Positions 7,290 through 28,967 of a stretch of DNA of 35,184 nt are shown piece by piece. Below the pieces are notes generated by a model. It saw only the letters and a list, made by a program, of their open reading frames with translations, did not search any database and was not told the DNA's origin. The DNA is taken from positions 62,001 to 97,184 of the forward strand of contig JBDREC010000076.1 of the NCBI GenBank assembly GCA_043820105.1. The letters are read 5' to 3'. The first letter of the stretch is position 1, and each line of letters starts with the position of its first letter. A program made the position numbers and the translations under genes. Source of the stretch: Pseudomonadota bacterium (GTDB taxonomy: Bacteria > Bdellovibrionota_F > JAHFAK01 > JBDREC01).

Positions 7290-7862
7290 ATGATAAACTT
7301 TATGAAAGAGTATAAGTTACTTTCTGCAGTTGTAATTATTTCATTAATTTTAATAGTCTTCTTTTACTTTACAGGCAATAATAACAATAGATCCGACAAA
7401 CCTGATAAAGATAACATTCAAACAGAAGATATTAGCAATCCAAATGTTGAACTTGAAAATACAAATATAATTGAAAGCAAAGAAGAAGCTTTAAACAAAA
7501 GCAAAACCAAAACTCCTAAACCTGTGCTTAAATCAGATAACGAGGAAGTTGAAGCTCAAGGAATAATTCCAAAAGAACCAACTGCAAATACTATGCCCGA
7601 TACATATCAAGATTCTTATCAAGAAGAGGCAGAAGACCATGAAGAAAATCAAAATGAAGAACCAGCGGCTCAAGGCTACAATGAAGATTTAGCTAATAAT
7701 CCACCTCCTCCCTCAGACACCGATGATGAAGACAGAGATGCAAATAATGAAGAACAAGAAGATAGTGAAGAAGAAGAAGTGGAAGAAGAAGAAGAAGATG
7801 GAACTACTGAAAATGAATATGAATATCGTGAAGAATCCGATAACACTTCTGAAGAAGAATAA
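7290..7862 (+). CDS. Membrane-anchored acidic, probably disordered protein
   Basis: AAGGAG RBS; one N-terminal TM segment; Asp/Glu-rich tail with a PPPP stretch; ends SEEE. Confidence 0.75.
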   Translation: MINFMKEYKLLSAVVIISLILIVFFYFTGNNNNRSDKPDKDNIQTEDISNPNVELENTNIIESKEEALNKSKTKTPKPVLKSDNEEVEAQGIIPKEPTANTMPDTYQDSYQEEAEDHEENQNEEPAAQGYNEDLANNPPPPSDTDDEDRDANNEEQEDSEEEEVEEEEEDGTTENEYEYREESDNTSEEE

Positions 7863-8143
7863 ATTAAAAATTATCTAAAAATAATTGTTCAATTAAGGTA
7901 GTTTTTTTTTCTGCTAGATAAATCAAAGAGATAAGATTTATTGATTTTTTTTTTATTAGAATCAACTTTAATAAGGCTATTTTCCTTTATTTCATTTTCA
8001 ATCTATTAAAATCTACTTGCATTAGCTTTCCTTAACTATTATATAATTTATTTTAATTTTACTTAATACTATATTTTTTGTATTAATGCAATAATAAATA
8101 AACGTGGTACGCCGTACACTGTATGCTTTAAAAAGGAGACAAA

Positions 8144-9550
8144 ATGAACAACTACAAAATAAAAGATATAAACCTAGCAGACTGGGGAAGAAGGGAAATT
8201 GTTATAGCAGAAAAAGAAATGCCTGGTCTGATGTCTATTAGAAATAAATATGCAGCTGAAAAACCATTAAAAGATCTTAGAATTTCAGGTTCACTTCACA
8301 TGACAATCCAAACAGCTGTTTTAATTGAAACCCTAAAAGACCTGGGTGCTAATGTAAGGTGGGCAAGTTGCAATATCTTTTCAACCCAAGATCACGCAGC
8401 AGCAGCTATCGCCAAAACAGAAACCCCTGTTTTTGCATGGAAAGGTGAAAATTTAGAAGAATATTGGTGGTGCACCTTACAAGCTTTAACTTTTGATGGA
8501 AATCTTGGACCAAACCTAATAGTTGATGACGGTGGAGATGCAACATTAATGATTCACTTAGGCGTGGAAGCTGAAAAAGACCCAGCTGTTTTAGAAATTA
8601 AAGCAAATGATCCTGAAGATGAAGTTGAACTCAAAAAATGCTTAAAAAAATCATTGGCAGAAAACCCCACAAAATGGTCAGATATTGCCAAGGAGTGGAA
8701 AGGTGTTTCAGAAGAAACAACCACAGGAGTCCATAGACTTTATCAAATGGCGCAAGACCAAAAACTTCTTGTTCCAGCTCTAAATGTTAATGATTCAGTG
8801 ACAAAATCTAAATTTGATAATCTGTACGGATGTCGTGAATCTTTAGCTGACGGAATAAAACGAGCAACTGATGTTATGATCGCTGGAAAAGTTGCCTGCA
8901 TCTGTGGATATGGCGATGTAGGAAAAGGCTCTGCTCAATCTTTGGCAGCCTTTGGAGCTCGCATTATGGTCACAGAAATCGATCCAATTTGTGCATTACA
9001 AGCTGCTATGGCTGGATTTGATGTTAAAACAGTTGAAGATACCTTAGGAATCGCTGATATTTATGTAACAACAACTGGAAACAAAAATGTTATTACAGCA
9101 GAACATATGATAAAAATGAAAGATCAAGCCATTGTATGCAATATTGGCCACTTTGACAATGAAATCGAAATGTCCGTTTTCAATAATCTTCCAACAGTTA
9201 AACGAGTTGAAGTTAAACCACAAGTGGACCAATATTTCTTTGAAGATGGCAGATCAATCTTTGTTTTAGCAGAAGGCAGACTCGTTAATTTAGGCTGCGC
9301 CACAGGGCATCCTTCGTTTGTTATGAGCAATTCCTTTTCTAATCAGGTGCTGGCTCAATTAGACCTCTGGAAAAATAGAGATAAATATGAAAACAAAGTC
9401 TACACTCTTCCTAAAATCCTAGATGAAGAAGTAGCGCGCCTACATCTTGATAAAATTGGAGCTAAGCTTACAACTTTATCTAAAGAACAAGCTGATTATA
9501 TTGGCGTTCCAGTTAATGGTCCATATAAGCCTGAGTATTATAGGTATTAA
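8144..9550 (+). CDS. ahcY: Adenosylhomocysteinase (SAH hydrolase)
   Basis: [84 protein letters not shown]-terminus [10 protein letters not shown]. Confidence 0.99.
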
Positions 9551-9697
9551 TTATTTTTGGATAAATCTCCTAAATAGCAAGTCCCAATAAACTTTTAGCA
9601 AATTTCATTAATAAAAAGGCAACGCGAAACAAGAAATCTTTCCTTTGTTTTGATATAAAATCTCAATGTTAATTATTAATTCAATGAAGAGGTATTT

Positions 9698-10744
9698 ATG
9701 ACAAAAAAAATCCATGGAATTATTTTATTAATAGGCATATTAATAAGCACAAGCATAGTTTCCATGGAGCATAGCGATGAAACAAACCCCAGGGAGGAAA
9801 GAATGATAACATTAGTAGAAATTGAAAATCTTTTAAATAATTATCAATTTGAAAGATATACTGAAGATGATCTAAAAAGGGAAATAATTCCGCTAGCCCT
9901 TTTATTATTAGATAGCCATATTCCAACAAACAGAATCTATGCTGCTTCCTTAATCATTTCATTTGGACCGCTTGACTTAATTACAGATTTCATTGGTTTA
10001 TTTAATGGTCTTGAATTTTATCAACCATTAAATCCAAATATTGCTTCAGTTGTTTATGAAAACAATCAATACACTTTTAAAGAAAATGAACTTTCAATTC
10101 CAGTCATTGCAAATGAAAAGGCATTAATTGAGGCAAGCTCAATATGGGCAGCAGCCTCCATTAGAGCAATCACAGACCTAAATAAAAAACATTCACAATA
10201 TTCACCAAAGCTCACAGCCCAGATTCTTGATAAAGCTGGCATTGTACTTTTTTATATGTTTAACAGAATTGCAGACAATCTAAGCCTGTATGAAAATAAA
10301 ATTCGTCTTGCTGCAAACTGGGCTCAATTCAAATTCACATATAATCCAAGTTTAAATATAAGATTTGATGGTCTTGAATACAAAAGATTCCAGGAAATCA
10401 CCTGGTTTCTTCCCAGAATATCATGTATATATAAAAATCTTGTACAACTAAGCATTCAAGAAAATGAAAATCATGAATTAGAAAAATCCCAGGCAAGTGA
10501 TTCTATTACAATAGAAGAAATTCAATATCTTTCAGATGAAATATTAAAAACAAGCCAAAGATTTCTGACAGTACAGGGCTATGGAAAAGATGCAACTAAA
10601 AGTGCCAAGAAAAAACTTAGAAAAAGCAATAAAACTTATAAAACCCAAAGTCTTGAAGAAATATTTTTAATCCAAGACCAAGGATGGAACAATTTTAGTG
10701 AAACAAATATATGTTTAAACTTTAATTCCTTTTTCAGCGACTAA
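9698..10744 (+). CDS. Hypothetical exported, predominantly helical protein
   Basis: 348-aa ORF with GAGG RBS and an N-terminal signal-like segment; no recognised motif. Confidence 0.7.
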   Translation: MTKKIHGIILLIGILISTSIVSMEHSDETNPREERMITLVEIENLLNNYQFERYTEDDLKREIIPLALLLLDSHIPTNRIYAASLIISFGPLDLITDFIGLFNGLEFYQPLNPNIASVVYENNQYTFKENELSIPVIANEKALIEASSIWAAASIRAITDLNKKHSQYSPKLTAQILDKAGIVLFYMFNRIADNLSLYENKIRLAANWAQFKFTYNPSLNIRFDGLEYKRFQEITWFLPRISCIYKNLVQLSIQENENHELEKSQASDSITIEEIQYLSDEILKTSQRFLTVQGYGKDATKSAKKKLRKSNKTYKTQSLEEIFLIQDQGWNNFSETNICLNFNSFFSD

Positions 10745-10908
10745 TTGCCCTCTCTTAATTTATTGTTTTTTCAGACACAAAAAACTCCTTTTGCCATTTC
10801 TATTCATTTGTGTTATAATATATAAATATAGTGACTTAGCTCGACAAAAGAATCATTGTTTTGTGTAACAGTAAAGAAAAAAAAATATTTTTTATAGGAG
10901 GGGATATC

Positions 10909-11952
10909 GTGAGGTTTTTTAAACTATTTTTTATATTAATTTCAGCTTTATCATTAACAACATCATGCGGAAGCTTGCTTGATTCATCATCTGGTGGGAG
11001 TGAAGCTGGTAATACAACAGTTGATTTTACATTAAGAGCTCAAATTTTTGATTCTGCCATTCCAAGCTTGTTTAAAAACATTAAATTCACAACAGAAGAT
11101 GATCCAACATATCAAGGTTTGCCAGATGGCGCTTCAGCTGGTTGCTGGGCTCCTGATGTTGAGGTGGATGATTTTGGCACTGGGTATGGAATTCCTCTAA
11201 ATATAAGTCCAACAACTTATAAAATAGCATTTAAAAGGGTCACCTTGCTTTCTGATTCTGAAGATTATGATGATGTCGATTTAATCAATGTAAGTAGTTT
11301 TGATGAAGCAGTAGTTGCTGACATTAAGGACATAGATGGAAATAATACTGTTACCTTACTTGATGGGCAAGTTACTTTAAATGAAGACGCTACTTATACA
11401 GGATTTGAGATTGAATTCTATTACATTGAAATGGGTTTACCTCATTTTATTGTTCCTGGAATTGATCCTGAAAATGAATCTACAGATGCAGAACCAATCT
11501 ACAGTCGAATGGTTTTTACAAGTTATGCTGAAAATGATAGCGCTACAGATAATGCTCAAAAACGTGATTTTCTGATCTTAGATCCTAGTGATGAAGAATA
11601 TAAATTGATTGATAATGATGGTGAGTTTATGTCTTTAGACAGTGACCACCGTGGAGTTGATCTATTTGCTGACGCTATTTGGGATAATGATCCAGTTATA
11701 TTAAGCACAGAATCTTCAGAAGGTGGCATGAGCTTTAGCTTCAATGGCACCATAACAGCAGCTGATGTTGCAAGTGAAGTTACAACCTTAAAATTTGATG
11801 TTGGTGAAGCCTGGTCATCATGGAGTTATATGGACTCTGATTATCCAGATGGATATGATTATTATGACTTTTCTTGGGGAAACTGTGGAATCCACCCAAT
11901 GCTTCCAATTATTGAAGTTGAAAACTCTGAAGAAGCAGAAGCCACTGAATAA
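10909..11952 (+). CDS. Acidic lipoprotein of unknown function
   Basis: Probable GTG start at 10909 after AGGAGG, in frame with the track ORF at 10861. Lipobox-like LTTSC, Ser-rich linker SSSGGS, very Asp/Glu-rich. Confidence 0.75.
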   Translation: MRFFKLFFILISALSLTTSCGSLLDSSSGGSEAGNTTVDFTLRAQIFDSAIPSLFKNIKFTTEDDPTYQGLPDGASAGCWAPDVEVDDFGTGYGIPLNISPTTYKIAFKRVTLLSDSEDYDDVDLINVSSFDEAVVADIKDIDGNNTVTLLDGQVTLNEDATYTGFEIEFYYIEMGLPHFIVPGIDPENESTDAEPIYSRMVFTSYAENDSATDNAQKRDFLILDPSDEEYKLIDNDGEFMSLDSDHRGVDLFADAIWDNDPVILSTESSEGGMSFSFNGTITAADVASEVTTLKFDVGEAWSSWSYMDSDYPDGYDYYDFSWGNCGIHPMLPIIEVENSEEAEATE

Positions 11953-12076
11953 GTTAATCCTGCGACATAATCTTTTTAGTTGTTCATTTTAAAATCAAAT
12001 AAACATTGACCATTTTAATCCATGCAACTACATAAATCCTATAAATTATATAATCAATCAAACAAGTTGAAACACA

Positions 12077-12800: not shown

Positions 12801-14612
12801 ATGAATTTAATTTTTAGATATAAAAAAGAAGCTTTAATTTTAATTTTAATCTTATTGCTTACATCTTTCGCCTTTTCTCCATCTCTAAAAGGTGAATTCT
12901 TAGTATCATGGGATGATAATACTCTTATTACCCAAAATGTTGATATTCAAAAATTAAATATGGAAAATATTCAGAATATATTTTCTAAATCATATGTCGG
13001 AATGTATATTCCACTGGTTATATTAAGTTTCGCGATAGAATACCATTTCGTAAAATATAACCCCTATATTTTTCATCTGACAAATCTGCTTTTTCACCTT
13101 CTCAATATAGTTTTAGTATTTCTTTTAATTACTATGCTTTTTTCTTTATATGAAAAAGTATACATTAAAAAACTGCAATATAAACTTATCATAGCAAGTT
13201 TAGTAACATTTCTATTTGCAATTCACCCAATGCATGTTGAATCTGTAGTATGGATCTCAGAACGCAAAGATCTCATGTTTACATTCTTTTTTTTATTTTC
13301 CACTTGTGCTTACTTAAAACACTTAAGCATAAGTACTATCGGAGCTAAGTTCTATGCAAATAAATACTATATATTAAGCCTTTTATTTTTCATACTAGCT
13401 CTTTTTTGTAAGGCACAAGCTGTTACCTTACCTATTGTTCTCTTATTAATTGATTATTTACTTTCAAATAAAATTAGTCTTAAAAATGTCTTTTTTGAAA
13501 AGATATTATTTTTCCTTCTAGCTTTGGTTTTTGGGATAATAGCTATTTTATCTCAGTTAAATGCTGGCATATTTTCAACATGCAAAGACTTTAATTTTTT
13601 AAATAAATTGTTTTTTATTATATATAGTTTTATTCAATATATTTTGAAACTTGCTCTGCCTTTTAACTTGTCGGCGTTTTATCAATATCCCAAACTTAAT
13701 AGTTTTACATATTTTTTATATTTGTTACTCTTTTTATTTATATTAAGCGCTCTGATATATCTTTACAGTAAAAAATATAAACTACTTATCTTTTCTGGTT
13801 TATTCTTTTTGATTAATATATCTATCGTACTACAAACAAGGGGAGCAAAAGTTTTTATGGCTGATAGATTTGTTTATTTGCCGTGTATTGGGTTTTTCCT
13901 GTTTTTTGCTTTACTAATTACAAAACTTAATAAAAAAATCTACCTTCACATTGCATTATGTATTTTTCTAATTTATGGACTTATCATTTCTTATCTGACT
14001 TTTGAAAGATCAAATGTTTTTGCAAACAGTAAAGCACTTTGGACTGATGTATTAAGCAAAACTTCAAATAATTCATATGCCTTATCAATGCGAGGCAATT
14101 ATTATAAATCGAAAAACTTTTTTGCAGAAGCATTAAAAGATTATGATCAAAGCTTGAGACTTAATAAAAATAATTTTTTGGCTTATTATCAAAGGTCACA
14201 AATTTTTTCTAATCAAGGCCAAATTAAAAAAGCATTAGAAGATCTTGATAAAGCAATAAATTTAAAACCCAATTTATATTATTTGTATAACAATAGAGGT
14301 GCTATTAAAAAAAGCTCAAAGGACCTTTCTGGGGCCTATGCTGATTTCTCTCAAGCTTTAAAAATACAAGCTAATTTAGCATCTTTTATTAACAGAGCAA
14401 GTTTGAATATAGACTTAAATAATTTCACACAAGCTTTGCAAGATCTCAAAGAAGCTGAACATTTTCAAAGCAATATTAGTTTAATTCATTTTTATAAGGG
14501 AATAGCATTGGTAAATTTGAATAAAAAGAAGCAAGGTTGCAGGCATCTAATAAAAGCTAATGAAATGAATATTAAAAAGGTAAAATATTTCTTACAGAAA
14601 TTTTGCAACTAA
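12801..14612 (+). CDS. TMTC-like GT-C membrane glycosyltransferase with C-terminal TPR repeats
   Basis: WDD acidic motif after TM1, HPMHVESVVWISERKD, ADRFVYLP, many TM segments, then TPR repeats (e.g. AYYQRSQIF...ALEDLDKAI, YNNRGAI). Confidence 0.85.
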   Translation: MNLIFRYKKEALILILILLLTSFAFSPSLKGEFLVSWDDNTLITQNVDIQKLNMENIQNIFSKSYVGMYIPLVILSFAIEYHFVKYNPYIFHLTNLLFHLLNIVLVFLLITMLFSLYEKVYIKKLQYKLIIASLVTFLFAIHPMHVESVVWISERKDLMFTFFFLFSTCAYLKHLSISTIGAKFYANKYYILSLLFFILALFCKAQAVTLPIVLLLIDYLLSNKISLKNVFFEKILFFLLALVFGIIAILSQLNAGIFSTCKDFNFLNKLFFIIYSFIQYILKLALPFNLSAFYQYPKLNSFTYFLYLLLFLFILSALIYLYSKKYKLLIFSGLFFLINISIVLQTRGAKVFMADRFVYLPCIGFFLFFALLITKLNKKIYLHIALCIFLIYGLIISYLTFERSNVFANSKALWTDVLSKTSNNSYALSMRGNYYKSKNFFAEALKDYDQSLRLNKNNFLAYYQRSQIFSNQGQIKKALEDLDKAINLKPNLYYLYNNRGAIKKSSKDLSGAYADFSQALKIQANLASFINRASLNIDLNNFTQALQDLKEAEHFQSNISLIHFYKGIALVNLNKKKQGCRHLIKANEMNIKKVKYFLQKFCN

Positions 14613-20118: not shown

Positions 20119-20993
20119 TGAATAGTGATTTTGATTTAAGAAAAGGAATATTCTTTTCCTTATTTTCTTGTTTCGGAATAGTTTGCATTTTTTTCCTTGG
20201 CAAGTTTGCTCTTGAAACAATAGCTGTTGAGGTTTTTCTTTTTTTTTGGTTTGGCTTAGCTTTTATTTATTTAAGTGCCTATAACCTTATTTTCATAAAA
20301 AAAAATCCATTTCTTATCTTATTAAAAAACAAGAAAACCTTAATTATTTATGTAATAGTTGAATTTATTGCATCTTATATATTTTTTTATATATTAAAAC
20401 ATTTAAATCCTTCATTTGTATCAACTTTAAATATATCTTTTACATTATTTCTATTTATACTCGGTATTATCATTTTAAAGGAAAGCTTTAATTCAATAGA
20501 AATTATTGGAGCTTTAATTGCATTAGCTGGCCTTATTGCTGTTTCATATTCTGGTGATTTTACCTTTACAATATATGCCATTATTTTTATACTTGGCAAC
20601 TTCATACAGGCCTTTAATACTATCTTTATAACAAAATTACTAAGAAAAGAAGATCCTGTTTTAATAAGCCAGCTTAGAACTTTATTTTTATCAATTTTTG
20701 CTTTATTCTTTTGCTTAATGAATGGTAATTTAGTTTTTCCATCTAATGATGGAATTTTATTTTTATCTTTAGGAAGCTTCTTTGGGCCTTGTGTAAATTT
20801 TCTTGGGTTTTATTTTGCAATAAAATATCTTGAGGTCTCAAAAGTTACGGTCATAAGAAACACAAACCCAATATTCGTTATAATTTTATCAATCTTATTC
20901 CTCAACTATTACCCTGAATTCAAGGAAATAATTGGGATGATCTGTTTATTAATGGGAACTGTAATATTAGTTCTTGGAAAGAGGAAAAAATGA
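20118..20993 (+). CDS. DMT/EamA family transporter
   Basis: About 10 TM segments in two repeats, with LKESF..IEIIGALIALAG; translationally coupled to dacB. Confidence 0.85.
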   Translation: MNSDFDLRKGIFFSLFSCFGIVCIFFLGKFALETIAVEVFLFFWFGLAFIYLSAYNLIFIKKNPFLILLKNKKTLIIYVIVEFIASYIFFYILKHLNPSFVSTLNISFTLFLFILGIIILKESFNSIEIIGALIALAGLIAVSYSGDFTFTIYAIIFILGNFIQAFNTIFITKLLRKEDPVLISQLRTLFLSIFALFFCLMNGNLVFPSNDGILFLSLGSFFGPCVNFLGFYFAIKYLEVSKVTVIRNTNPIFVIILSILFLNYYPEFKEIIGMICLLMGTVILVLGKRKK

Positions 20994-21534
20994 AATATAA
21001 AGGTATTATTTTTGATCTTGATGGAACCTTGGTTGATTCCATTGAAGACATTGCTGATTCCATGAATATTGTACTTGAAAATAATGATTTAAAACACACT
21101 CAGTAAAGGATTATAAATACTTTGTTGGTGATGGAATCAGAAATCTTGTAAAAAGATCACTTCCACAAAATAAAAGAGATGCTGCAATTATTGAAAAACT
21201 TCTTTTTGAGATAAAAAAGGAATATGCTCAAAAATGGAACAACAAAACAAAGCCTTATGAAGGAATTATTGACCTATTAAAAAAGCTAAAGTCAATGAAC
21301 ATAAAACTAGCTGTTCTTTCAAATAAACCAGACAAATATACAAAGCTTGTTTGTAATTATTTTTTTAAGGAAAATTATTTTGAAATTATAATGGGTGCAA
21401 GGGCTAACTTTCCTAAAAAACCTGAACCTGAGGCAGCATTATTTATCGCTAACAACTTGAACCTTGAACCAATGGAGATGTTATTTGTGGGTGATTCAAA
21501 TGTAGACATGAAAACTGGAATAAATATTTTTTAA
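20990..21534 (+). pseudogene. HAD-family phosphatase (phosphoglycolate phosphatase-like), frameshifted and 3'-truncated
   Basis: ATG 20990 gives MKYKGIIFDLDGTLVDS with a stop at 21104-21106. The -1 frame from TTTAAAAC (~21088-21095) continues KTHSVKDYKYFVGDG...LSNKP...KKPEP...VGDSNVD, then stops abruptly at 21534. Confidence 0.85.
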
Positions 21535-21749
21535 ATATATTTTCCTGCTTCGTTCAAACCATTGACATCTCCTGAACCGCCTAGATTCAATACTTTAAAC
21601 ATAGGAATTAGCATATAAAAGCTAAGCCCCTGAGAAAGGCCAGTAAATAAAGACATAAAAAATAATATTAAAATTCTATATTTTGTAAAAGACATAAAAT
21701 CTTTAACATAATTTTTCAAGATTATAAAACTTGATTGTAAACTAACCAA
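21531..21749 (-). pseudogene. N-terminal remnant of a peptide ABC exporter (lasso D-like)
   Basis: Overlaps the B2 stop. Encodes only a first TM region (ILILFFMSLFTGLSQGLSFYMLIPMF) resembling ABC exporter TM1, then stops after 72 aa. Sits where lasso clusters usually place the exporter. Confidence 0.6.
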
Positions 21750-22173
21750 AATATGCTACCTCAGAATATTCCGCATTATTTTTTCCGCCTGTTACTGGTG
21801 TTTCACCAACTTTTAGCCAGGCATGAGCAATCAGCGAATTATTTTTTTTATCTTTTCCCATACCAATGTATAAGGTGCTGTTAATTTTTCTGCGTTTTAG
21901 CATTATTTTAGCTGCTATAGCCTGGGGAAGACAATTACTTTTCACAGGCATATATTTAGAAACCTTATTGATGTAATAGGATATTTTATTAAGCATTTGA
22001 AAATCAACATTTTGAGCTTCATCATTTTGCTTATGCTTTCCAAGTATTATTTTTAAATATTTTGGGGATAAAATAATAATTGATATTCGGGCAAAGAATA
22101 AAAAAAAGGCCAGCTCTAACACAAAGAGTTTATTTTCACTTTTTAATCTTAAAAATTTTTTTATTCTTTTCAT
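21742..22173 (-). CDS. Lasso peptide B2 leader peptidase (transglutaminase-like)
   Basis: NCLPQAIA (catalytic Cys), LYIG and AHAWL (catalytic His), VTGG; adjacent to the PqqD-family gene. Confidence 0.92.
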   Translation of the reverse strand: MKRIKKFLRLKSENKLFVLELAFFLFFARISIIILSPKYLKIILGKHKQNDEAQNVDFQMLNKISYYINKVSKYMPVKSNCLPQAIAAKIMLKRRKINSTLYIGMGKDKKNNSLIAHAWLKVGETPVTGGKNNAEYSEVAYFG

Positions 22174-22176
22174 TTA

Positions 22177-22458
22177 TCACGCAATTTCCAAAAGACCCTT
22201 TTTACTAATATCTTTAACAAATAGTATTATATCATTAATGCAATCTTCCTTAAAAACATCAAACTCTTTTATTAATTTTAAAGCAAGTTCTTCAACAGAA
22301 AAGACTTTGTCTTCTAGAAGTTCCCAAATCCTTGTTCCAACTTCATTGAAATTGTACATATTACAATCTTCAACATTTAGCATTACAACTTCATCATCAA
22401 GATAGTTGTGCTCCTGATTTTTACTTCGCCTCACTTTTGTATTTTTTGTAATTTCCAT
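22177..22458 (-). CDS. Lasso peptide B1 / PqqD-family RiPP recognition element
   Basis: 93 aa; LDDEVVML...YNFNEVGTRIWELL...L.KEFDV..EDC..DI..F...GLL is a typical PqqD pattern. Confidence 0.92.
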   Translation of the reverse strand: MEITKNTKVRRSKNQEHNYLDDEVVMLNVEDCNMYNFNEVGTRIWELLEDKVFSVEELALKLIKEFDVFKEDCINDIILFVKDISKKGLLEIA

Positions 22459-22472
22459 TTTAATTGTTTCCT

Positions 22473-23333
22473 TTAAAAAACTAATTTATCATTTTTATCT
22501 AAATATCCAAAACGCTTCATCACGTCATAATGACAACTTATTAGCTTGTCAACATGATGATTTTTTAGTTTTTCTCTCCATGAACCAATTTTGCCCTTTC
22601 TAAAAAAGAACTTACATTTTTGGGGTTTTTCGTTAAAGCTTTTTTCTTCTTCCTGCTTCCTTAGTTTATCAAAACTTGTTTTTTCAATTGCCTGGGCAAT
22701 TTCTTTATCTGATTTATCCAGGTTTAGAAAATCGCATGCTTTTTTAAAAGTCCTTAAAGAATCAAGTTTCATATCTTCATATCTTAAAACACAAACTTTG
22801 TTAGGTGAATCAATCCAAGAAAGAACATGCCCACTCCAGGTAAGATGCCTTTGCAATAGCTGATTTGAAAAACTTTTCTTGTGCTTGCATAAAGCAAAGT
22901 CATTATTGCATAAATTATCAACAGTTTTATCAATAGATCCCGAATTATGATTTGCAAAAGAAACTGCTACATCAAGGGGATTTCTGACTAAATATATTAC
23001 TCCAAATGTAGCCTCAGGAGGAAAAAGCCACTCGCTCTCTTTGGTCTTTGTATAGGCATCGTGAACTTTCATATAGAATTTATCTTCTAAATTATCAGAA
23101 ATTTCTCTATAAACATCAGGTCTTAAGCTTTCAACTTCATCAGAAGATAAATCTGAAGATTCACATTCTACATGGTCTTCAAAAATTCCCCTTGCAGATG
23201 CAATAGGAGTTGATTGAAGATCATTTATGTCAGGTTCTGATTTTTTTTCATTTAAAATTGTACTTAAAAAGGTGCGGAACCATGTATTTCCTGACTTGGG
23301 ATAGGAAGCAAGCCATACAATATTATTTTTCAC
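22473..23333 (-). CDS. PAPS-dependent sulfotransferase
   Basis: LASYPKSGNTW (5'-PSB), RNPLDVAVS (3'-PB), LRYEDM and FFRKGKIGSW. Confidence 0.92.
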   Translation of the reverse strand: MKNNIVWLASYPKSGNTWFRTFLSTILNEKKSEPDINDLQSTPIASARGIFEDHVECESSDLSSDEVESLRPDVYREISDNLEDKFYMKVHDAYTKTKESEWLFPPEATFGVIYLVRNPLDVAVSFANHNSGSIDKTVDNLCNNDFALCKHKKSFSNQLLQRHLTWSGHVLSWIDSPNKVCVLRYEDMKLDSLRTFKKACDFLNLDKSDKEIAQAIEKTSFDKLRKQEEEKSFNEKPQKCKFFFRKGKIGSWREKLKNHHVDKLISCHYDVMKRFGYLDKNDKLVF

Positions 23334-24232
23334 TTTAAAATGTCCTTTTCAATGACATCAATGTAATGCTTAAAATCTTCAGTTCTTTGGGGTCTTGTAA
23401 TTGTGGTCATTGGAAGCTTGGCTAGCTCAACAGCAATTTTAAAAAAGGTGCTTTGCTTGTTTAAACCCTGAATATAGGATTTTCTATAGGAATTTGCTTT
23501 AATTATTTTCAGCCTTGCTTTTCCCAGAGTTTTTTCAATGGTCAAAATCTTTTCATCATTATGAGTTCTCACATGATACATTTTATAGATAGGGATTGCC
23601 TTGCCTTGATCGAGTTGTTCATAGCTGACATAATATTTATTAAGTGAATCCCTTACCTGAATAAAATCTCCTGTTTCTTGATTCAGTTTTATGGAATCTT
23701 CCCATAGCTTCATCATTGGATAGGAAGCAAAAAGATTTAATTTCTTATTTTCCATTTTTATTGGAGCAATATCATCTGTGATAACCCTGTATCCCCTCTT
23801 ATAAAAAGCATAGGCAAGAGTTGATTTTCCAACGCCTGAATTTCCAATGAACATTACAGCACCTTTGCCTGTTAGAATTGTAGATGCATGCATTGGAAGA
23901 TAATTTTTCATATAAAGAGTCGCGCCCATAACAGATCCAAGCAAGAATAAGCTAAGCTTATCTTCGTCTTTCATGAAATCTTGATCAATGATAATTTCTT
24001 TGCCATCTTTTACATAATATCTAAGGCCCAGCTTTTCATTGAAAAATAAAAACTCATTCTCTGCCATCTGACAGCACACATTTTTTTTCCGGATAGGTCT
24101 TGATAAATTATCTGGAGTTTTTGCGATTATAATCTTCAGATTGGGATTCGTAAATGCTTCTTTAACAGAATTTAGAGCTCTAATTTGAAACTGTGATTCT
24201 ATATTTAGATTAAAAATCTTGTAATTATACAT
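23330..24232 (-). CDS. HPr-kinase-like lasso peptide kinase (PadeK-type)
   Basis: MHAST, Walker A GNSGVGKST, ITDD and YPMMKLW; lies inside the lasso cluster. Confidence 0.88.
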   Translation of the reverse strand: MYNYKIFNLNIESQFQIRALNSVKEAFTNPNLKIIIAKTPDNLSRPIRKKNVCCQMAENEFLFFNEKLGLRYYVKDGKEIIIDQDFMKDEDKLSLFLLGSVMGATLYMKNYLPMHASTILTGKGAVMFIGNSGVGKSTLAYAFYKRGYRVITDDIAPIKMENKKLNLFASYPMMKLWEDSIKLNQETGDFIQVRDSLNKYYVSYEQLDQGKAIPIYKMYHVRTHNDEKILTIEKTLGKARLKIIKANSYRKSYIQGLNKQSTFFKIAVELAKLPMTTITRPQRTEDFKHYIDVIEKDILK

Positions 24233-24356: not shown

Positions 24357-24524
24357 TTAAGACGGACCCACAGTAGAAGTTGGTGTTGTTTCAGAAGTAC
24401 TAACAAAAGACTTTCCATTAACATCTGACACAAAAAGTGATTCACATTTAGGAGAAGCGTAAGGTTTAAGTTTCTTACAATATTGGGTTCTAATGTGATT
24501 TTCTTTTTTAGCTTCTTTTTCCAT
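24357..24524 (-). CDS. Lasso peptide precursor, 55 aa (not in ORF track)
   Basis: Manual translation: MEKEAKKENHIRTQYCKKLKPYASPKCESLFVSDVN|GKSFVSTSETTPTSTVGPS. AGGA upstream; YxxP leader motif; core Gly1 with Glu9 acceptor; C-terminal Ser. Confidence 0.88.
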   Translation of the reverse strand: MEKEAKKENHIRTQYCKKLKPYASPKCESLFVSDVNGKSFVSTSETTPTSTVGPS

Positions 24525-24591
24525 TATTCCATCCTATAAAAATTGCAAAAAGTATGTCTTTAAATCTAATTTTGAGGTTTTTGTCAAATGA

Positions 24592-25815
24592 TTAATGATT
24601 AATTAAACCCTCTAATAAATTAACATCATTAATCAATTCTATATTCCAATTATAATTAGCTTCAATTATAATTGGTCCTCTATCTGTCAATGCCAGATCA
24701 AAGGCAACAGATTTAAGATTTATTAGATTTTCATGTACTTTTATACAATAATCAACTGCTGTTGAAATTAATTTTCTAAGGTTTTGGCTTATAATAATAT
24801 CTTTATTATACTTTAGTTCTGAATTTATCCTCCACTTATTATCAACTTCAAAAGATTTCAAATCTAAAGGATAAATTTTATATAATTGCCTTTTATTTAT
24901 TTCGTGTTTTTTTGCAGCTGGTATTTCAAGTTGAAGATAAATAGCTTTGAATTCACCATCTTTAAATTCAAATGTTATTATTCTAAGTGTGGAAATTTCT
25001 TGTGATTCTGAAAAGTCATTGAGATCAGGATGATCAGAAAGGTAAGGTTCTATCATCATATTTTGTTTTTTAATTAATCCATTTAAATATCTTTCAATCC
25101 CAACATGTTCTTTTATAACATTACCGTTAATTGGATGAATTTCATATTGATTTGTCTTAGCAACATATAAAAGTTTAAATGCATCTTTACTTTGAGAAGA
25201 AACAAGCGGTTTACAAAAAACAGTTCTATTTCTAAAAAAGCTTGAAATTGATGACCTCTTTTTGACTAAGTCTAAGGTTTGAACTGAAGGAATATTGATA
25301 GATTTTAAGGCCTTTGCAAACTCATATTTATTTCCAATAAATTCTTTGGTTTCTTTCAGATCTTTCTTATTCTTATTAATAAAATCGTGAAAACAAGGAA
25401 GTTCTGATTTATAGAAATATTTATGTATTAAAGACTTATTTTCTTTAAGATAAAATTTATATCTATAATAGTTTATTGGAAGAATGTGATAGAAAAAATT
25501 GAGTTTTATAATTGTTATAGCTTGTGTTACGATTAATGTCCCATATTCCTTTTTTATAAATATCCCTTTTTTAAAAATTAATTTAAATAATATTTTCCAT
25601 AATTTATAAAAATACCAAATCAAAGCCTGAGCAGAAAACAAGATAAAATAACAAGGATTTAAAAGTTTTTTTATTTTCAAATAAAGCAGTTTTTTGTGTA
25701 AATTTTTGTGTTTATCATTCTTTGCCGAAAACAAATAAAGATTAAATAAAGGAAATGGTTTTGCTTCAAGATACAATCTCGATAATTGTGAAAGTAATTT
25801 TTGCCAAATATTCAT
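24592..25815 (-). CDS. ATP-grasp ligase resembling the sugar-transfer-associated (ST) ATP-grasp family
   Basis: NKYEF...IPSVQT, VFCKP, MIEPYLSDHPDL, STLRIIT and VAFDLALTDRGPIIIEAN. Confidence 0.78.
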   Translation of the reverse strand: MNIWQKLLSQLSRLYLEAKPFPLFNLYLFSAKNDKHKNLHKKLLYLKIKKLLNPCYFILFSAQALIWYFYKLWKILFKLIFKKGIFIKKEYGTLIVTQAITIIKLNFFYHILPINYYRYKFYLKENKSLIHKYFYKSELPCFHDFINKNKKDLKETKEFIGNKYEFAKALKSINIPSVQTLDLVKKRSSISSFFRNRTVFCKPLVSSQSKDAFKLLYVAKTNQYEIHPINGNVIKEHVGIERYLNGLIKKQNMMIEPYLSDHPDLNDFSESQEISTLRIITFEFKDGEFKAIYLQLEIPAAKKHEINKRQLYKIYPLDLKSFEVDNKWRINSELKYNKDIIISQNLRKLISTAVDYCIKVHENLINLKSVAFDLALTDRGPIIIEANYNWNIELINDVNLLEGLINH

Positions 25816-25821
25816 TTTATT

Positions 25822-27693
25822 TTACCAATTACTGCCATCTGGATAGAAAGTCTTAAACCACAAATCTAAATTATTAATGTTTGCAATTGATTTACTTATT
25901 GTAAATTGAGTAAGCCTATCCTTAGAATTTGATGAATTATTAATGTTTTCTTTTAATCGATCAATATCTAGAATTTGATAAAGGTCTTTATGCAAGTTTT
26001 TAGCAAGATCTAAATTAGTTTTAATATTTGTAGCACTTATTGGACTTCCCATCCATTTGCTTTTTTTCCAATTCACTCCTTTTGGAACAAGTTCGTCACA
26101 AACCAAGCGATGAAAATATCTGCTGATTTTATTAAATTTATGCTCTGTAGGAATTGACAAGAAAAAATCAATCAGTCTTACATCAAGTAATGGCCAGGCA
26201 TAATCAACGCCATATGAATGTGCCATTTGAGTACAATTGTTCATTCTTGTGGGAACAAAGGGCACAAATCTTTTTTCCAAGGTAAACTTATTTAAGTCAA
26301 CATATCCTGCGTCAAACCTGGCTTGATCAAAATACTTTTCTTTAAGCGAAAATCTCTGTATAATTTCATCTTTAATTGAAAAATATGGCCATCTTTTTTT
26401 CCAGGCTTTTAAAAATCTAGGACTATATTCTAAGTTTGATTTAAATTTAAATGAATAGAAATGCTTTAATAACCTAAGAAAACTTGTTAATATATTTCCA
26501 TTTAATCTGCTGTAAACAAAATTATATTTTTTGTCATAAAACATTTCTTTTATAGCAATATCACCATGAATTGAAGTTACAAATTCATCTCCCCCAAACC
26601 CCGACAAAAGAGTTCTAATGTTGTTCTTTTCACATAACATATAAAAGGGGTTATGATATGTTGAGTTTCCGTGTTCATATGGATATCCCATTGCATCCAA
26701 TGATCTATTTTTAATTTCAAGCGATAAATTATTTCTACCACAAAAAATGTAATTATTATTTATGTTATACTTCTGACTTGTTTGAAGAATAAACTTTGGT
26801 TCATCCTCAAGTTTTGCAAATCCAAAAGTGTATAAATTTTCAATAGATTGATTAAAATATTTAGCCGCTATTGAAGTAATAGTTGAAGAATCAATACCTC
26901 CGCTATTTTCTGACCCAACCTTATAATCGCTATCAATTCTTGTTTTAACAGCGTTAATTAATAGTTCTTTATATTCTTCAATATAATCATCTGTTTTTTG
27001 ATAATTAATTCTTTTATCAGGATCAAAAGAAAAATACTTTTCCTTTCTAAATTTTTCTTTATCCAAAATAATTTGATTAGCAGGCGGGATTTTAAAAATA
27101 CTATCATAAGCTGTATCTTCAAAGTCCATAGAAAGATGCAACATATACTTTGCTGCCCATTCTAAGCGTGGATTAATAGGGAAAAGATTGAATCTATGAA
27201 ACAAGGTTAAGGTTGAAGAAAAAACAAAAATCTTATCATCGCAATAATAGTAAAAGGGTTTTACTGCCATATGATCCACAAAGCAGTATAGCCTATTTTC
27301 TTTTTGACTGTATATTATAGCACTATAATCTCCATAAATATGCTTTGTTAAATCATCTTTCCACTTTAAATAACTTAAAAATGTAAGCTTTTGATCACTT
27401 GTTTTTTTAAGTTCTTCTCTTGAGATATCAAAAACGCAAGCTAGTTCATCTCGATTTGTAAGCCTTCCCCAAAACAAAACTACAAGTTGCTTTTGATGCT
27501 CAATTAATGGTGTATGCTCATATTTTGATTGTGGCGAATTGTACATCGTCATCTGAGTTAAAATCACAGCATCATCTATATAAGATCCGAGCTTATCAGC
27601 CTTTTTAAACTGATTTAAAGTTGATTCAATAATTTCCTGATAATCTCTGAGATCTATTGAACTTTTTTTTCTTTTAAAAATTCCGGCTATCAT
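25822..27693 (-). CDS. Lasso peptide cyclase (asparagine synthetase-like isopeptide synthase)
   Basis: SGGIDSS ATP-binding loop, LSGFGGDE and WPLLDVRLIDF. Lacks the N-terminal glutaminase Cys (starts MIAGIF). Clustered with B1, B2 and the precursor. Confidence 0.92.
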   Translation of the reverse strand: MIAGIFKRKKSSIDLRDYQEIIESTLNQFKKADKLGSYIDDAVILTQMTMYNSPQSKYEHTPLIEHQKQLVVLFWGRLTNRDELACVFDISREELKKTSDQKLTFLSYLKWKDDLTKHIYGDYSAIIYSQKENRLYCFVDHMAVKPFYYYCDDKIFVFSSTLTLFHRFNLFPINPRLEWAAKYMLHLSMDFEDTAYDSIFKIPPANQIILDKEKFRKEKYFSFDPDKRINYQKTDDYIEEYKELLINAVKTRIDSDYKVGSENSGGIDSSTITSIAAKYFNQSIENLYTFGFAKLEDEPKFILQTSQKYNINNNYIFCGRNNLSLEIKNRSLDAMGYPYEHGNSTYHNPFYMLCEKNNIRTLLSGFGGDEFVTSIHGDIAIKEMFYDKKYNFVYSRLNGNILTSFLRLLKHFYSFKFKSNLEYSPRFLKAWKKRWPYFSIKDEIIQRFSLKEKYFDQARFDAGYVDLNKFTLEKRFVPFVPTRMNNCTQMAHSYGVDYAWPLLDVRLIDFFLSIPTEHKFNKISRYFHRLVCDELVPKGVNWKKSKWMGSPISATNIKTNLDLAKNLHKDLYQILDIDRLKENINNSSNSKDRLTQFTISKSIANINNLDLWFKTFYPDGSNW

Positions 27694-27951: not shown

Positions 27952-28240
27952 CTATGCCTGCTTGTGTAAACTTTTAAAAAAACCTACAATATGCTTACAA
28001 TATTTATTATGCTTTTTCATAAAGTCAGTCAGATTTAAGTTTAACTTTATATAATCAATGTTTTCAGGTTTATTAATTATCAAATCTCTTAAAAAAAGTG
28101 TTTCTGATAACTTTTCAGCAAAGGTTTTTGACATCATTTTCAATTCAGCAAGCCTTTTATATCTATCTTCATATGTCTTAAGGTGGGACAAGTGGATTCC
28201 ATTTTCATATATGATGTGAATGTTAATATCAATTTCCCAT
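27952..28240 (-). pseudogene. 3' remnant of an unrelated gene fused to the truncated IS110
   Basis: An open frame WEIDINIHIIYENGIHLSHLKTYEDRY...HKQA* begins at the point where transposase similarity ends; no convincing start or RBS. Confidence 0.4.
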
Positions 28241-28967
28241 GTGCTTTGTTCTTAAATCTAAATGGATCAAAAATAAATGCTGAAAATGTTGCAGCTGTTA
28301 CTAATCCCACTCCCTTTACTTTTAAAAACTCTTTTATCTCTTTAAACTTTTCAGATCGTTTTCTCATTTCATTATAAACTTCTATTTTCTGATTTTCTAA
28401 AATTTCAAGTTGTCTCCAATAGAGAGTTGCAGATTTTATTGATATTTGAGTTTCCTTAATTTTAGACAACCATTTTTCACTATTCTTTTCTGAATATATC
28501 GTTTGTCCTGAACATGGAATAGCTCTGTTTTTAAACACTCGTTTCAATCTGTTTTTGCTTCTGGTAATATCTTTTACTATTTTGTTATACAAATTTACTA
28601 ATTCTCTAAACTCTTGTCTCTCTTTTGAAATTGGATGAAATACTTCTTTAAGTTCTCCCATTCTTAATAATCTTGCCAAATTCTCTGAATCAGTTTTATC
28701 ATTACTGTTTCCTTTGTAGATACTAGGATTTTCCCCTGGATCACAGATCAAAGCACGATCAACTTTATTATAAGTTATATTCAACATCCATTCAGCCAAA
28801 GGTCCCTCTTCAAATGTTAATTGTTTTTTACCTCTTATACCTTTCAAATATTCAATAACAAGTTTTTCACTTGTCGGTATAATTTTTCTATCAACTATTT
28901 TTCCCTCTGAATTAATTGTACAAAATGTAATTGACTTGCCATGCAAATCTGCGCCTATACTTTTCAT
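28140..28967 (-). pseudogene. IS110-family (DEDD) transposase, C-terminally truncated
   Basis: SIGADLHGKS, FEEGP, NDKTDSENLARLL and VKGVGLVTA...DPFRF are present. The expected following YxGL...SG segment is missing. Confidence 0.85.

What the first reader, a model, noticed from the sequence alone, without database searches (positions are those of the whole stretch)
24357..24524. Unannotated lasso precursor with non-canonical leader and a plug-less Ser/Thr-rich tail
Seen: a 55-aa ORF below the track cutoff; predicted core GKSFVSTSETTPTSTVGPS with a Gly1-Glu9 ring and a 10-residue tail. The leader has YASPKC (Cys where YxxPxL has Leu) and Val instead of the nearly invariant Thr at -2. Ten of 19 core residues are Ser/Thr, and the tail has no aromatic or other large residue to lock a 9-residue ring. 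Inference: tailoring groups (phosphate, sulfate or a cross-link) may provide the steric lock, and this B2 may have a relaxed -2 pocket.
Basis: partly seen in the sequence, partly recalled or inferred. Interest (0 to 1): 0.8.

Follow-up and report, generated by a model that had tools for sequence, protein, structure and literature searches.

The report
Kinase-linked lasso peptide precursor gene
This small gene is a real precursor of a knotted "lasso" peptide of the known serine-phosphorylated type; its odd features have published precedents, and the new point is a rare extra ligase gene that travels with an invariant lysine in the peptide.

Summary
The 55-codon ORF at 24357-24524 (minus strand) is exactly as described. 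It lies inside an intact lasso cluster: cyclase C, ATP-grasp ligase, precursor A, HprK-like kinase, sulfotransferase, B1 and B2. Related precursors sit beside orthologous cyclases in Victivallales MAGs. They keep L19, P21, Y22, P25, G37, K38, E45, G53 and S55. Of the 20 residues shared with the closest relative, 12 use different codons, so the ORF is a translated gene.

The predicted core is GKSFVSTSETTPTSTVGPS with a Gly1-Glu9 ring. This is the only register shared by all grasp-linked relatives.

The "non-canonical" features are real but mostly have precedents:
- The Y(-15)/P(-12) spacing equals that of the paeninodin-like leader PbaA (PMC13381572).
- Ile/Val at -2 is a published rare variant in phosphorylated lasso peptides (PMC10368454).
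- A modification acting as the lock of a plug-less tail was proposed for pseudomycoidin (PMC6993621).

Two points go beyond this. By my site predictions, the -2 residue is free across this family. And a rare ATP-grasp ligase accompanies this cyclase clade: Lys at core position 2 occurs in 5 of 5 grasp-linked precursors and 0 of 4 others.

Earlier notes of this scan describe similar plug-poor, Ser-ending precursors on other DNA. The exporter gene is a 72-codon stub. Expression could not be tested.

The parts
24357..24524 (-). Precursor gene A (55 aa plus stop). Leader codons are 24524-24417 and core codons 24416-24360.
24528..24535 (-). Shine-Dalgarno-like AGGATGGA; the AGGA ends 7 nt before the ATG.
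   Evidence: Read.
25822..27693 (-). Lasso cyclase C (623 aa). It is Asn-synthase-like and starts MIAG, so it has no Cys2.
   Evidence: PF00733, E 3.8e-25. (NF033535 lasso cyclase, E 6.2e-78, 262.9 bits, below the model's 525-bit cut-off)..
24592..25815 (-). ATP-grasp ligase (407 aa, PF14397), immediately downstream of C.
   Evidence: (AF2, pLDDT 79.7). (Foldseek hits to Ddl, PsnB, RimK, LysX). (10 relatives in 5.8e9 proteins).
23330..24232 (-). HprK-like peptide kinase (300 aa) with invariant H115, K136, D153 and D154.
22473..23333 (-). PAPS-type sulfotransferase (286 aa).
   Evidence: PF00685, E 1.1e-27.
22177..22458 (-). B1, the PqqD-type leader-binding protein (93 aa).
   Evidence: (NF033536, E 4.8e-17). 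(best solved matches 9x90_B and TbiB1 5v1u).
21742..22173 (-). B2 leader peptidase (143 aa); C81 and H117 are invariant among 5 homologues.
   Evidence: NF033537, 83.9 bits, above the 33-bit cut-off..
21531..21749 (-). 72-codon stub of the ABC exporter gene D. The rest of the gene is missing from the window.
   Evidence: 47% identical to residues 1-72 of the 583-aa paralogue in L085; no further significant match in the window..

Best explanation
The ORF encodes the precursor of a kinase-associated, paeninodin-type lasso peptide.

Shown here: it lies in a cluster with C, B1, B2, an HprK-like kinase, a sulfotransferase and an ATP-grasp ligase, and it belongs to a conserved precursor family.

Inferred pathway:
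1. B1 binds the leader through Y22 (-15) and P25 (-12).
2. The kinase phosphorylates a serine of the still-linear precursor. The invariant C-terminal Ser55 (core S19) is the most likely site, as for PadeK, ThcoK and PsmK. Ser3 is a second candidate by analogy with BsfK.
3. B2 cuts between N36 and G37.
4. C joins the Gly1 amine to the Glu9 side chain, giving a 9-residue ring with a 10-residue tail.

The tail has no side chain large enough to plug a 9-residue ring. So any stable threading must depend on added groups: phosphate or polyphosphate on the terminal Ser, sulfate on Ser/Thr, or a product of the ATP-grasp ligase. I put stable threading that depends on such a modification at about 0.35. 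Otherwise the mature product relaxes to a branched cycle.
For: Cluster content:
- C, B1 and B2 match lasso models. B2 scores above its curated cut-off.
- B1's best solved relatives are lasso RREs.

Conserved family:
- An alignment of 3 precursors beside orthologous cyclases (57-58% identity) keeps L19, P21, Y22, P25, G37, K38, E45, G53 and S55.
- The 7-member alignment keeps M1, L19, Y22, P25 and S55, and all 7 end in Ser.
- 12 of 20 shared residues use different codons.

Register:
- [G/S]-K at positions 1-2 with E at 9 is common to all 5 grasp-linked precursors.
- Y(-15)/P(-12) equals the spacing of the PbaA leader (PMC13381572).

Kinase:
- The His-Lys-Asp-Asp motif of lasso kinases, named in review PMC9266682, is invariant in 4 homologues.

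Literature:
- These kinases phosphorylate the C-terminal Ser of the linear precursor (PMC8498205 and PMC9266682, passages read).
- Unmodified pseudomycoidin, which also lacks a bulky tail residue, behaved as a branched cycle. Its authors proposed that the phospho-hexose on the terminal Ser acts as the lock (PMC6993621, passages read).
Against: - No expression or mass-spectrometry data exist. No RNA run holds the locus.
- The exporter gene is truncated, so the cluster may be in decay.
- Val at -2 and Cys at the sixth motif position are not what characterised B1/B2 systems prefer.
- The kinase matches HprK models only below their curated cut-offs.
- The phosphorylation site is not known. BsfK uses Ser3, not the C-terminus (PMC10368454, abstract).
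- Cleavage sites of relatives are my predictions. In two relatives (P0006, L073) I could not place a canonical 7-9-residue ring.
- A phosphate at the very C-terminus could act only as a lower stopper. Nothing shows that it suffices for a 9-residue ring.
Confidence: 0.7

Rival explanations
1. The peptide is made and cyclised, but the mature product is not a stable lasso. Without a plug it is a branched-cyclic, heavily O-modified (phospho/sulfo) peptide, and the modifications serve activity or solubility rather than topology.
For: - The tail has no bulky residue.
- Wild-type pseudomycoidin purified without kinase and nucleotidyltransferase was a branched cycle and became threaded only with an L21F change (PMC6993621, passages read).
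- Among the 9 relatives in which I could place a ring, 3 also have tails with no aromatic residue: L013, P0003 and L074. With the window that is 4 of 10.
Against: The cyclase machinery is lasso-type. Six relatives with a placed ring (L014, both L099 precursors, L096, L100, and P0006 in its 7-ring reading) keep Tyr, Phe or Trp in the tail, which suggests that threading matters in the family.
Confidence: 0.3
2. The ATP-grasp ligase makes a second amide on the core peptide. It would use the invariant Lys2 side-chain amine and the only other free carboxylate common to all five cores, the C-terminal one. This would lock the tail covalently to the ring, giving a bicyclic lasso.
For: - C and the ATP-grasp gene are adjacent in the window, L013, L014/L080, L097, L098 and L099.
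- Lys at core position 2 occurs in 5 of 5 precursors found in grasp-containing clusters: window, L013, L014 and two in L099.
- It occurs in 0 of 4 precursors in clusters without the grasp gene: L096, L100, L077 and L078.
- L096 has a window-type cyclase (50% identity) but neither the grasp gene nor Lys2, so Lys2 is not a requirement of the cyclase.
- The window and L013 cores hold one acidic residue only (E9).
- The fold is a bona fide ATP-grasp ligase that resembles, among others, the peptide ligases PsnB and RimK.
Against: - The correlation rests on few, related clusters.
- Foldseek does not discriminate between substrates.
- The ligase could act on a small molecule, add amino acids to the C-terminus (RimK-like), or acylate Lys2 with something else.
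Confidence: 0.12
3. The cluster is a decaying remnant, and the peptide is no longer produced or exported in this organism.
For: - The exporter gene D is reduced to 72 codons.
- The convergent HAD hydrolase gene is frameshifted and clipped.
- An IS110-family transposase gene, split over two ORFs, lies upstream of C.
- Relatives show decay: L015 is a broken cyclase with IS elements, and the cyclase in L098 carries an internal stop.
Against: - All seven biosynthetic ORFs are intact.
- A full-length paralogous exporter exists elsewhere in the genome, in L085.
- Cluster GC (0.24-0.34) matches its flanks.
- As I recall, many lasso clusters lack a D gene; this was not checked here.
Confidence: 0.12
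4. Cleavage occurs two residues later, keeping Tyr at -17. The core would be SFVSTSETTPTSTVGPS with a Ser1-Glu7 ring.
For: The canonical spacing Y(-17)/P(-14) is seen in 5 of 5 precursors I read beside distant cyclases, and in L014 and L100.
Against: - The same shift in L013 would put Pro at position 1, and in L014 Tyr.
- G-K is invariant at the proposed junction in the three closest relatives.
- The -15/-12 spacing is documented for paeninodin-like leaders (PMC13381572).
- L096 also has Y(-15), with T(-2).
Confidence: 0.04

Closest known systems
Paeninodin-type phosphorylated lasso peptides (PadeA/PadeK, ThcoA/ThcoK, SyanA/SyanK; PbaA/PbaB1)
   Same: - Split B1/B2.
- HprK-like kinase with the His-Lys-Asp-Asp motif.
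- Precursor ends in Ser.
- The aromatic residue and Pro of the leader motif are at -15 and -12, as in PbaA.
- B1's best NCBIfam hit is the Bacillus-type lasso PqqD model.
   Different: - Tyr instead of the Trp typical of Bacillota paeninodin-like leaders (PMC13381572).
- Val instead of Thr at -2.
- No bulky tail residue.
- No nucleotidyltransferase gene.
- An ATP-grasp ligase is attached to the cyclase, and Lys2 is invariant.
- The host belongs to a phylum with only 4 genomes held.
Pseudomycoidin (Bacillus pseudomycoides; PMC6993621)
   Same: - 9-residue ring.
- C-terminal Ser modified through a kinase.
- The tail lacks a residue that holds the thread.
- Its authors proposed that C-terminal modification acts as the lock.
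   Different: In pseudomycoidin the bulky group is hexose on the phosphate and depends on PsmN. Here there is no PsmN homologue, but a sulfotransferase and an ATP-grasp ligase instead.
BsfA/BsfK of Bradymonas sediminis and the Ile/Val(-2) precursors of Acidobacteriaceae and Sphingomonadales (PMC10368454)
   Same: A kinase-linked lasso precursor with a branched aliphatic residue instead of Thr at -2. Ser3 is present in the core.
   Different: - Those precursors keep YxxPxL at -17 to -12 and a Gly1-Asp8 ring.
- Here -2 is not conserved even among close relatives (V, A, T, P, P by my site predictions).
Graspetides (e.g. PsnB substrates)
   Same: An ATP-grasp ligase is encoded beside a ribosomal precursor, and the fold resembles PsnB.
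   Different: - The core has a single acidic residue, so multiple side-chain cross-links are not possible.
- The ligase belongs to PF14397, not to the graspetide ligase families.
- Lasso machinery is present.

Membership tests
Lasso peptide precursor | Encoded in a cluster with a lasso cyclase (C), an RRE (B1) and a leader peptidase (B2). | tested here: met
   NF033535 E 6.2e-78 (below its 525-bit cut-off), NF033536 E 4.8e-17, NF033537 above its cut-off. B1 matches solved lasso RREs.
Lasso peptide precursor | Leader carries the aromatic-x-x-Pro part of the RRE-binding motif. | tested here: met
   Y22 and P25 are invariant in 7 of 7 relatives. The -15/-12 spacing is as in PbaA (PMC13381572).
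Lasso peptide precursor | Sixth motif residue is one of L/V/I/F/A. | tested here: not met
   The window has Cys27. Relatives have V, L, I, Y or G.
Lasso peptide precursor | Thr at the penultimate leader position. | tested here: not met
   Val35. Ile/Val(-2) is a documented exception (PMC10368454).
Lasso peptide precursor | Core position 1 is small (Gly/Ala/Ser/Cys) and Asp/Glu is at position 7, 8 or 9. | tested here: met
   G37 and E45 give a 9-residue ring. Both are invariant in the 3 closest relatives.
Lasso peptide precursor | A means of holding the thread: bulky tail residues (class II) or Cys pairs. | tested here: not met
   The tail T46-S55 has no aromatic, Arg, Lys, Met or Cys.
Lasso peptide precursor | Threaded lariat topology of the product. 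| not testable with these tools
   Needs isolation, then NMR, ion mobility or protease assays.
Paeninodin-type phosphorylated lasso peptides | HprK-like kinase with the His-Lys-Asp-Asp motif in the cluster. | tested here: met
   PF07475 E 2.1e-07 and TIGR04352 E 1.1e-08, both below their cut-offs. H115, K136, D153 and D154 are invariant. The motif is named in PMC9266682.
Paeninodin-type phosphorylated lasso peptides | Precursor ends in Ser. | tested here: met
   S55. The 7 of 7 aligned family members end in Ser, as do the 4 further precursors read in L096, L099 and L100.
Paeninodin-type phosphorylated lasso peptides | Phosphate on that Ser in the product. | not testable with these tools
   Needs MS.
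Graspetides | Core with several Asp/Glu and Ser/Thr/Lys partners for side-chain cross-links made by an ATP-grasp ligase. | tested here: not met
   An ATP-grasp fold is present, but the core has one acidic residue, E9.

The most novel reading that the evidence does not exclude
This cyclase clade has recruited a rare ATP-grasp ligase that uses the invariant Lys2 of the core. It may join Lys2 to the C-terminal carboxylate, so that a second, enzyme-made amide replaces steric plugs and disulfides as the lock. That would be a further way of fixing lasso topology, and it would explain why plug-less Ser/Thr-rich tails are tolerated here.
Probability: 0.12. Interest if true: 0.8.

Novelty: new variant of a known kind. 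Interest (0 to 1): 0.45.

Why it matters
The gene adds a member from a barely sampled phylum to the phosphorylated lasso peptides. It shows that in this family the supposedly critical Thr(-2) is dispensable: my predicted sites give five different residues other than Thr at that position. This is useful for genome-mining rules, such as RODEO-type scoring, that weight Thr(-2), Y(-17) and plug residues.

The cluster also offers a test bed for two uncharacterised lasso tailoring enzymes, the sulfotransferase and the PF14397 ATP-grasp ligase. In some searches I found no paper that assigns a function to either in a lasso cluster. It further allows a test of the open question raised by pseudomycoidin: can a post-translational group, rather than a side chain, hold a lasso thread?

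Tried and rejected
- Word-index search with the precursor found only the query itself.
- Expression: the look-up of sequencing runs listed no RNA holder. Two DNA runs held a small share of the words (0.12 and 0.06). I did not lay reads, so nothing can be said on expression or habitat.
- Complex prediction of the ATP-grasp with the precursor gave no verdict (score 0.00 in two runs). I make no claim on binding.
- Foldseek on the ATP-grasp model confirms the fold only. Ddl, PsnB, PurK, RimK and LysX score alike, so no substrate can be inferred.
- The B2 search against solved structures found no meaningful match, so the '-2 pocket' could not be examined.
- The promoter and terminator scan found no more sites than in shuffled sequence and no terminator after the precursor.
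- The metagenome scan returned 53 loci, of which only L016 (the same contig as L013) is close. The others are 20-36% identical in their best segment.
- In one search, six hits were long proteins (593-3803 aa) matched over short stretches. I took them for low-complexity matches and did not examine them.
- In one search, matches L075 (one TGA inside, E 0.029) and L076 (E 0.155) gave no leader-motif ORF and were dropped.
- I found no precursor near the C-grasp pairs in L097 and L098, nor on the 4.4-kb contig L101.
- PMC4919450 (paeninodin, JBC 2016) is not held, so its content is cited only through reviews. Supplements of PMC10368454, which hold the alignments of Ile/Val(-2) precursors, were not seen.
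- Chance ORF: rejected, because of codon-level conservation and synteny.
- LPP-type linear phosphopeptide (PMC13381572): rejected as the main reading. A cyclase and B2 are present, Pfam found no signal-peptidase domain in the cluster ORFs scanned, and G1/E9 are conserved.

Full report
**Observation.** translates window:24357-24524 (minus strand) to a 55-residue peptide, MEKEAKKENHIRTQYCKKLKPYASPKCESLFVSDVNGKSFVSTSETTPTSTVGPS. An AGGA lies 7 nt before the ATG. The leader is 36 residues. The core is GKSFVSTSETTPTSTVGPS with G at position 1 and E at position 9. The tail has 10 residues, and 10 of 19 core residues are Ser/Thr. YASPKC sits at residues 22-27, Val is at -2 and Asn at -1. The tail has no aromatic, basic, Met or Cys residue.

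**Context.** The ORF lies in a co-directional minus-strand cluster:
- Cyclase C, 25822-27693. It hits Asn_synthase, and its best NCBIfam hit is the lasso cyclase model NF033535 (E 6.2e-78), below that model's cut-off. It starts MIAG, so it has no Cys2.
- ATP-grasp ligase, 24592-25815 (PF14397).
- The precursor.
- HprK-like kinase, 23330-24232.
- Sulfotransferase, 22473-23333 (PF00685, E 1.1e-27).
- B1, 22177-22458 (PqqD; NF033536).
- B2, 21742-22173 (NF033537, above its cut-off).

B1's best solved relatives are lasso RREs: 9x90_B (E 1.4e-07) and TbiB1 5v1u (E 1.1e-06). The kinase keeps H115, K136, D153 and D154 in all 4 homologues aligned. This is the His-Lys-Asp-Asp motif that review PMC9266682 (passages read) gives for lasso kinases. 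B2 keeps C81 and H117.

Downstream, the exporter gene is a 72-codon stub. It is 47% identical to residues 1-72 of a 583-residue ABC transporter encoded elsewhere in the genome, and the window holds no further significant match to that transporter. The convergent HAD gene is frameshifted and clipped. An IS110-family transposase gene lies upstream of C. Cluster GC (0.24-0.34) is like its flanks.

**Is it a real gene?** The word-index search found only the query. Other searches found relatives.
- A scan of one genome per species with the cyclase found three loci, all in Victivallales MAGs. L013 and L014 encode cyclases 57-58% identical. Each has a small ORF beside the cyclase that aligns with the window's peptide.
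- Invariant in these three are L19, P21, Y22, P25, G37, K38, E45, G53 and S55.
- BLASTP of the window peptide against the L013 peptide gives E = 3e-09, ungapped over residues 16-48. Against the L014 peptide only the leader motif aligns (E = 0.10).
- Of the 20 residues shared with L013, 12 use different codons. In the shared STSETTP block 6 of 7 codons differ. That is the signature of selection on the peptide.
- A profile of the three, searched against 1.84 billion representatives, gave 10 hits at E <= 0.001. Four are small peptides: the query, the L013 peptide, P0003 and P0006. Six are long proteins that I did not examine.
- The two Victivallales genomes hold further paralogues. The 7-member alignment keeps M1, L19, Y22, P25 and the C-terminal Ser.
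- The window's own genome has no second member.

**Register of the core.** With Gly37 as position 1, the window, L013 and L014 all read G-K-x6-E. Two more precursors found later beside a C-plus-ATP-grasp pair (L099) have the cores SKEYPSHNEVTFPASGAS and GKPVDSPVEKLTFVGAS, again with K at 2 and E at 9. Shifting the site by two residues to restore Tyr(-17) would put Pro or Tyr at position 1 in the relatives.

The window's spacing, Y(-15) and P(-12), is that of the crystallised paeninodin-like leader PbaA, which has W-15 and P-12 (PMC13381572, sections 8 and 9 read). L096 has Y(-15) together with T(-2). In contrast, the five precursors I could read beside distant cyclases (20-28% identity; L017, L020, L021/L022, L024, L030) all have Y(-17), P(-14), L(-12) and T(-2). 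So do L014 and L100, with V and I respectively at -12. All cleavage sites in relatives are my predictions from the ring rule, not tool outputs. For P0006 and L073 I could not place a canonical ring.

**How unusual are the leader features?**
- The published motif is [Y/W]xxPx[L/V/I/F/A] (PMC13381572, section 6). Cys at the sixth place is outside it. Relatives carry V (5), Y, L, I, I and G there.
- Thr(-2) is replaced by Val. PMC10368454 (abstract and section 22 read; supplements not seen) validated Ile(-2) experimentally in a kinase-linked precursor. [quoted passage not shown]
- In this family my predicted -2 residues go further. They are V (window), A (L013), T (L014), P and P (L099), T (L096), T (L100), F (P0003) and E (L074).
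- This fits a peptidase that does not read -2, but nothing here tests B2.

**The plug question.**
- I could place a ring in 9 relatives. Three of them also have tails with no aromatic residue: L013, P0003 (whose tail does hold a Met) and L074. With the window that is 4 of 10. In L073 no ring could be placed.
- Six tails keep Tyr, Phe or Trp: L014, both L099 precursors, L096, L100, and P0006 if read with a 7-residue ring.
- That a 9-residue ring needs large plugs is established knowledge, recalled and not computed here.
Pseudomycoidin made without its kinase and nucleotidyltransferase behaved as a branched cycle and became threaded with an L21F change. Its authors proposed that the phospho-hexose on the C-terminal Ser is a 'third strategy' for locking (PMC6993621, passages read).
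- Lasso kinases act on the linear precursor at the C-terminal Ser and can add several phosphates (PMC8498205 and PMC9266682, passages read).
- Here there is no nucleotidyltransferase, but there are a sulfotransferase and an ATP-grasp ligase.
- Sulfotransferase genes in kinase-type lasso clusters have been noted since 2014 without a function (PMC4289311 and PMC8498205, passages read). The 18 papers that hold both 'lasso peptide' and 'sulfotransferase' (16 listed) include none whose title or abstract reports a characterisation.
- Two of the cores in sulfotransferase-containing clusters (the window and P0003) have no Tyr. If the enzyme acts on the peptide, it must use Ser/Thr or an added group.

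**The ATP-grasp ligase.**
- It is rare: 10 proteins, including the query, at E <= 1e-05 in 5.8 billion.
- The AF2 model has mean pLDDT 79.7. It matches ATP-grasp ligases in general, such as Ddl, PsnB, PurK, RimK and LysX, so the substrate cannot be inferred. The protein atlas places it with PF14397 clusters.
- It sits directly after the cyclase in the window, L013, L014/L080, L097, L098 and L099.
- It was not found in clusters with other cyclases (L077, L078), nor in L096 and L100, whose cyclases are 50% and 40% identical to the window's.
- Lys at core position 2 occurs in 5 of 5 precursors from grasp-containing clusters and 0 of 4 from the others. These clusters are few and related, so this is a lead and not a statistic.
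- The window and L013 cores hold a single acidic residue, which the cyclase needs. The only other carboxylate common to all five cores is the C-terminal one.
- A Lys2 to C-terminus amide would lock the tail covalently. I rate this at about 0.12. RimK-like C-terminal extension or acylation of Lys2 are alternatives.
- I found no paper on such a ligase in a lasso cluster.

**Distribution.**
- The window's phylum has only 4 genomes held, and the ATP-grasp was found in none of the other three.
- The closest clusters are in Victivallales/Lentisphaeria. Of 301 genomes sampled from that class, 6 have a match at E <= 1e-80.
- The wider cyclase family has 309 proteins at E <= 1e-40. It includes proteins about 40% identical that sources name from Coxiellaceae, Legionella, Francisella and Geobacteraceae. 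None of the 7 sequences I read has Cys2.

**Verdict.** The ORF is a genuine precursor of a paeninodin-type, kinase-linked lasso peptide. Its unusual leader and plug-less tail are real but have published precedents. The free -2 position across the family, and the coupling of the ATP-grasp ligase with Lys2, are the parts not found in print. Expression, modification sites and topology remain untested.

Noticed in passing
L085 (G000:C29:70000-89885), genes at 7345-12007: The same genome has a second locus: an HprK-like kinase (64% identical to the window's), a 550-aa B12-binding radical SAM protein, a B2-like peptidase (69% identical) and a full-length ABC exporter. It has no cyclase, no B1 and no precursor that I could recognise. 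It may be a cyclase-less RiPP cassette.
   Followed up: partly
window 20990-21749: A deletion junction. The exporter gene D is cut to 72 codons, and the convergent HAD-family hydrolase gene is frameshifted (N-terminal part in another frame) and clipped at its 3' end.
   Followed up: yes
window 27952-28967: An IS110-family transposase gene appears split into a 275-aa ORF, which holds the DEDD domain, and a 79-aa ORF just upstream of the cluster.
   Followed up: no
L099 (G233:C1:65000-84900), 13177-13966 minus strand: Two tandem precursor genes with a WxxP leader motif (KVWVTP) instead of YxxP and near-identical N-termini. Both end in G-A-S. They lie between a C plus ATP-grasp pair and a K-ST-B1-B2 operon.
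   Followed up: partly
proteins P0044, P0055, P0071, P0082, P0092 and P0109: Full-length relatives of this cyclase (about 40-44% identity) are named by their sources as asparagine synthase(-related) proteins of Coxiellaceae, Legionella, Francisella and Allofrancisella. The three I read start MIGG, MIHG or MFHG without Cys2, so they may be unrecognised lasso-type cyclases. Their gene neighbourhoods were not seen.
   Followed up: no
L015 (8001-9475) and L098 (10029-11879): Decayed copies of the window-type cyclase in Victivallales genomes. One is split and flanked by transposase genes. The other has an internal TAA and a transposase-sized ORF between the ATP-grasp and the kinase.
   Followed up: no
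L096 (G268:C116), 4387-4575 minus strand: The precursor with core GGWIHWWYEDSPWFQS is encoded on the strand opposite to its cyclase and kinase genes.
   Followed up: no
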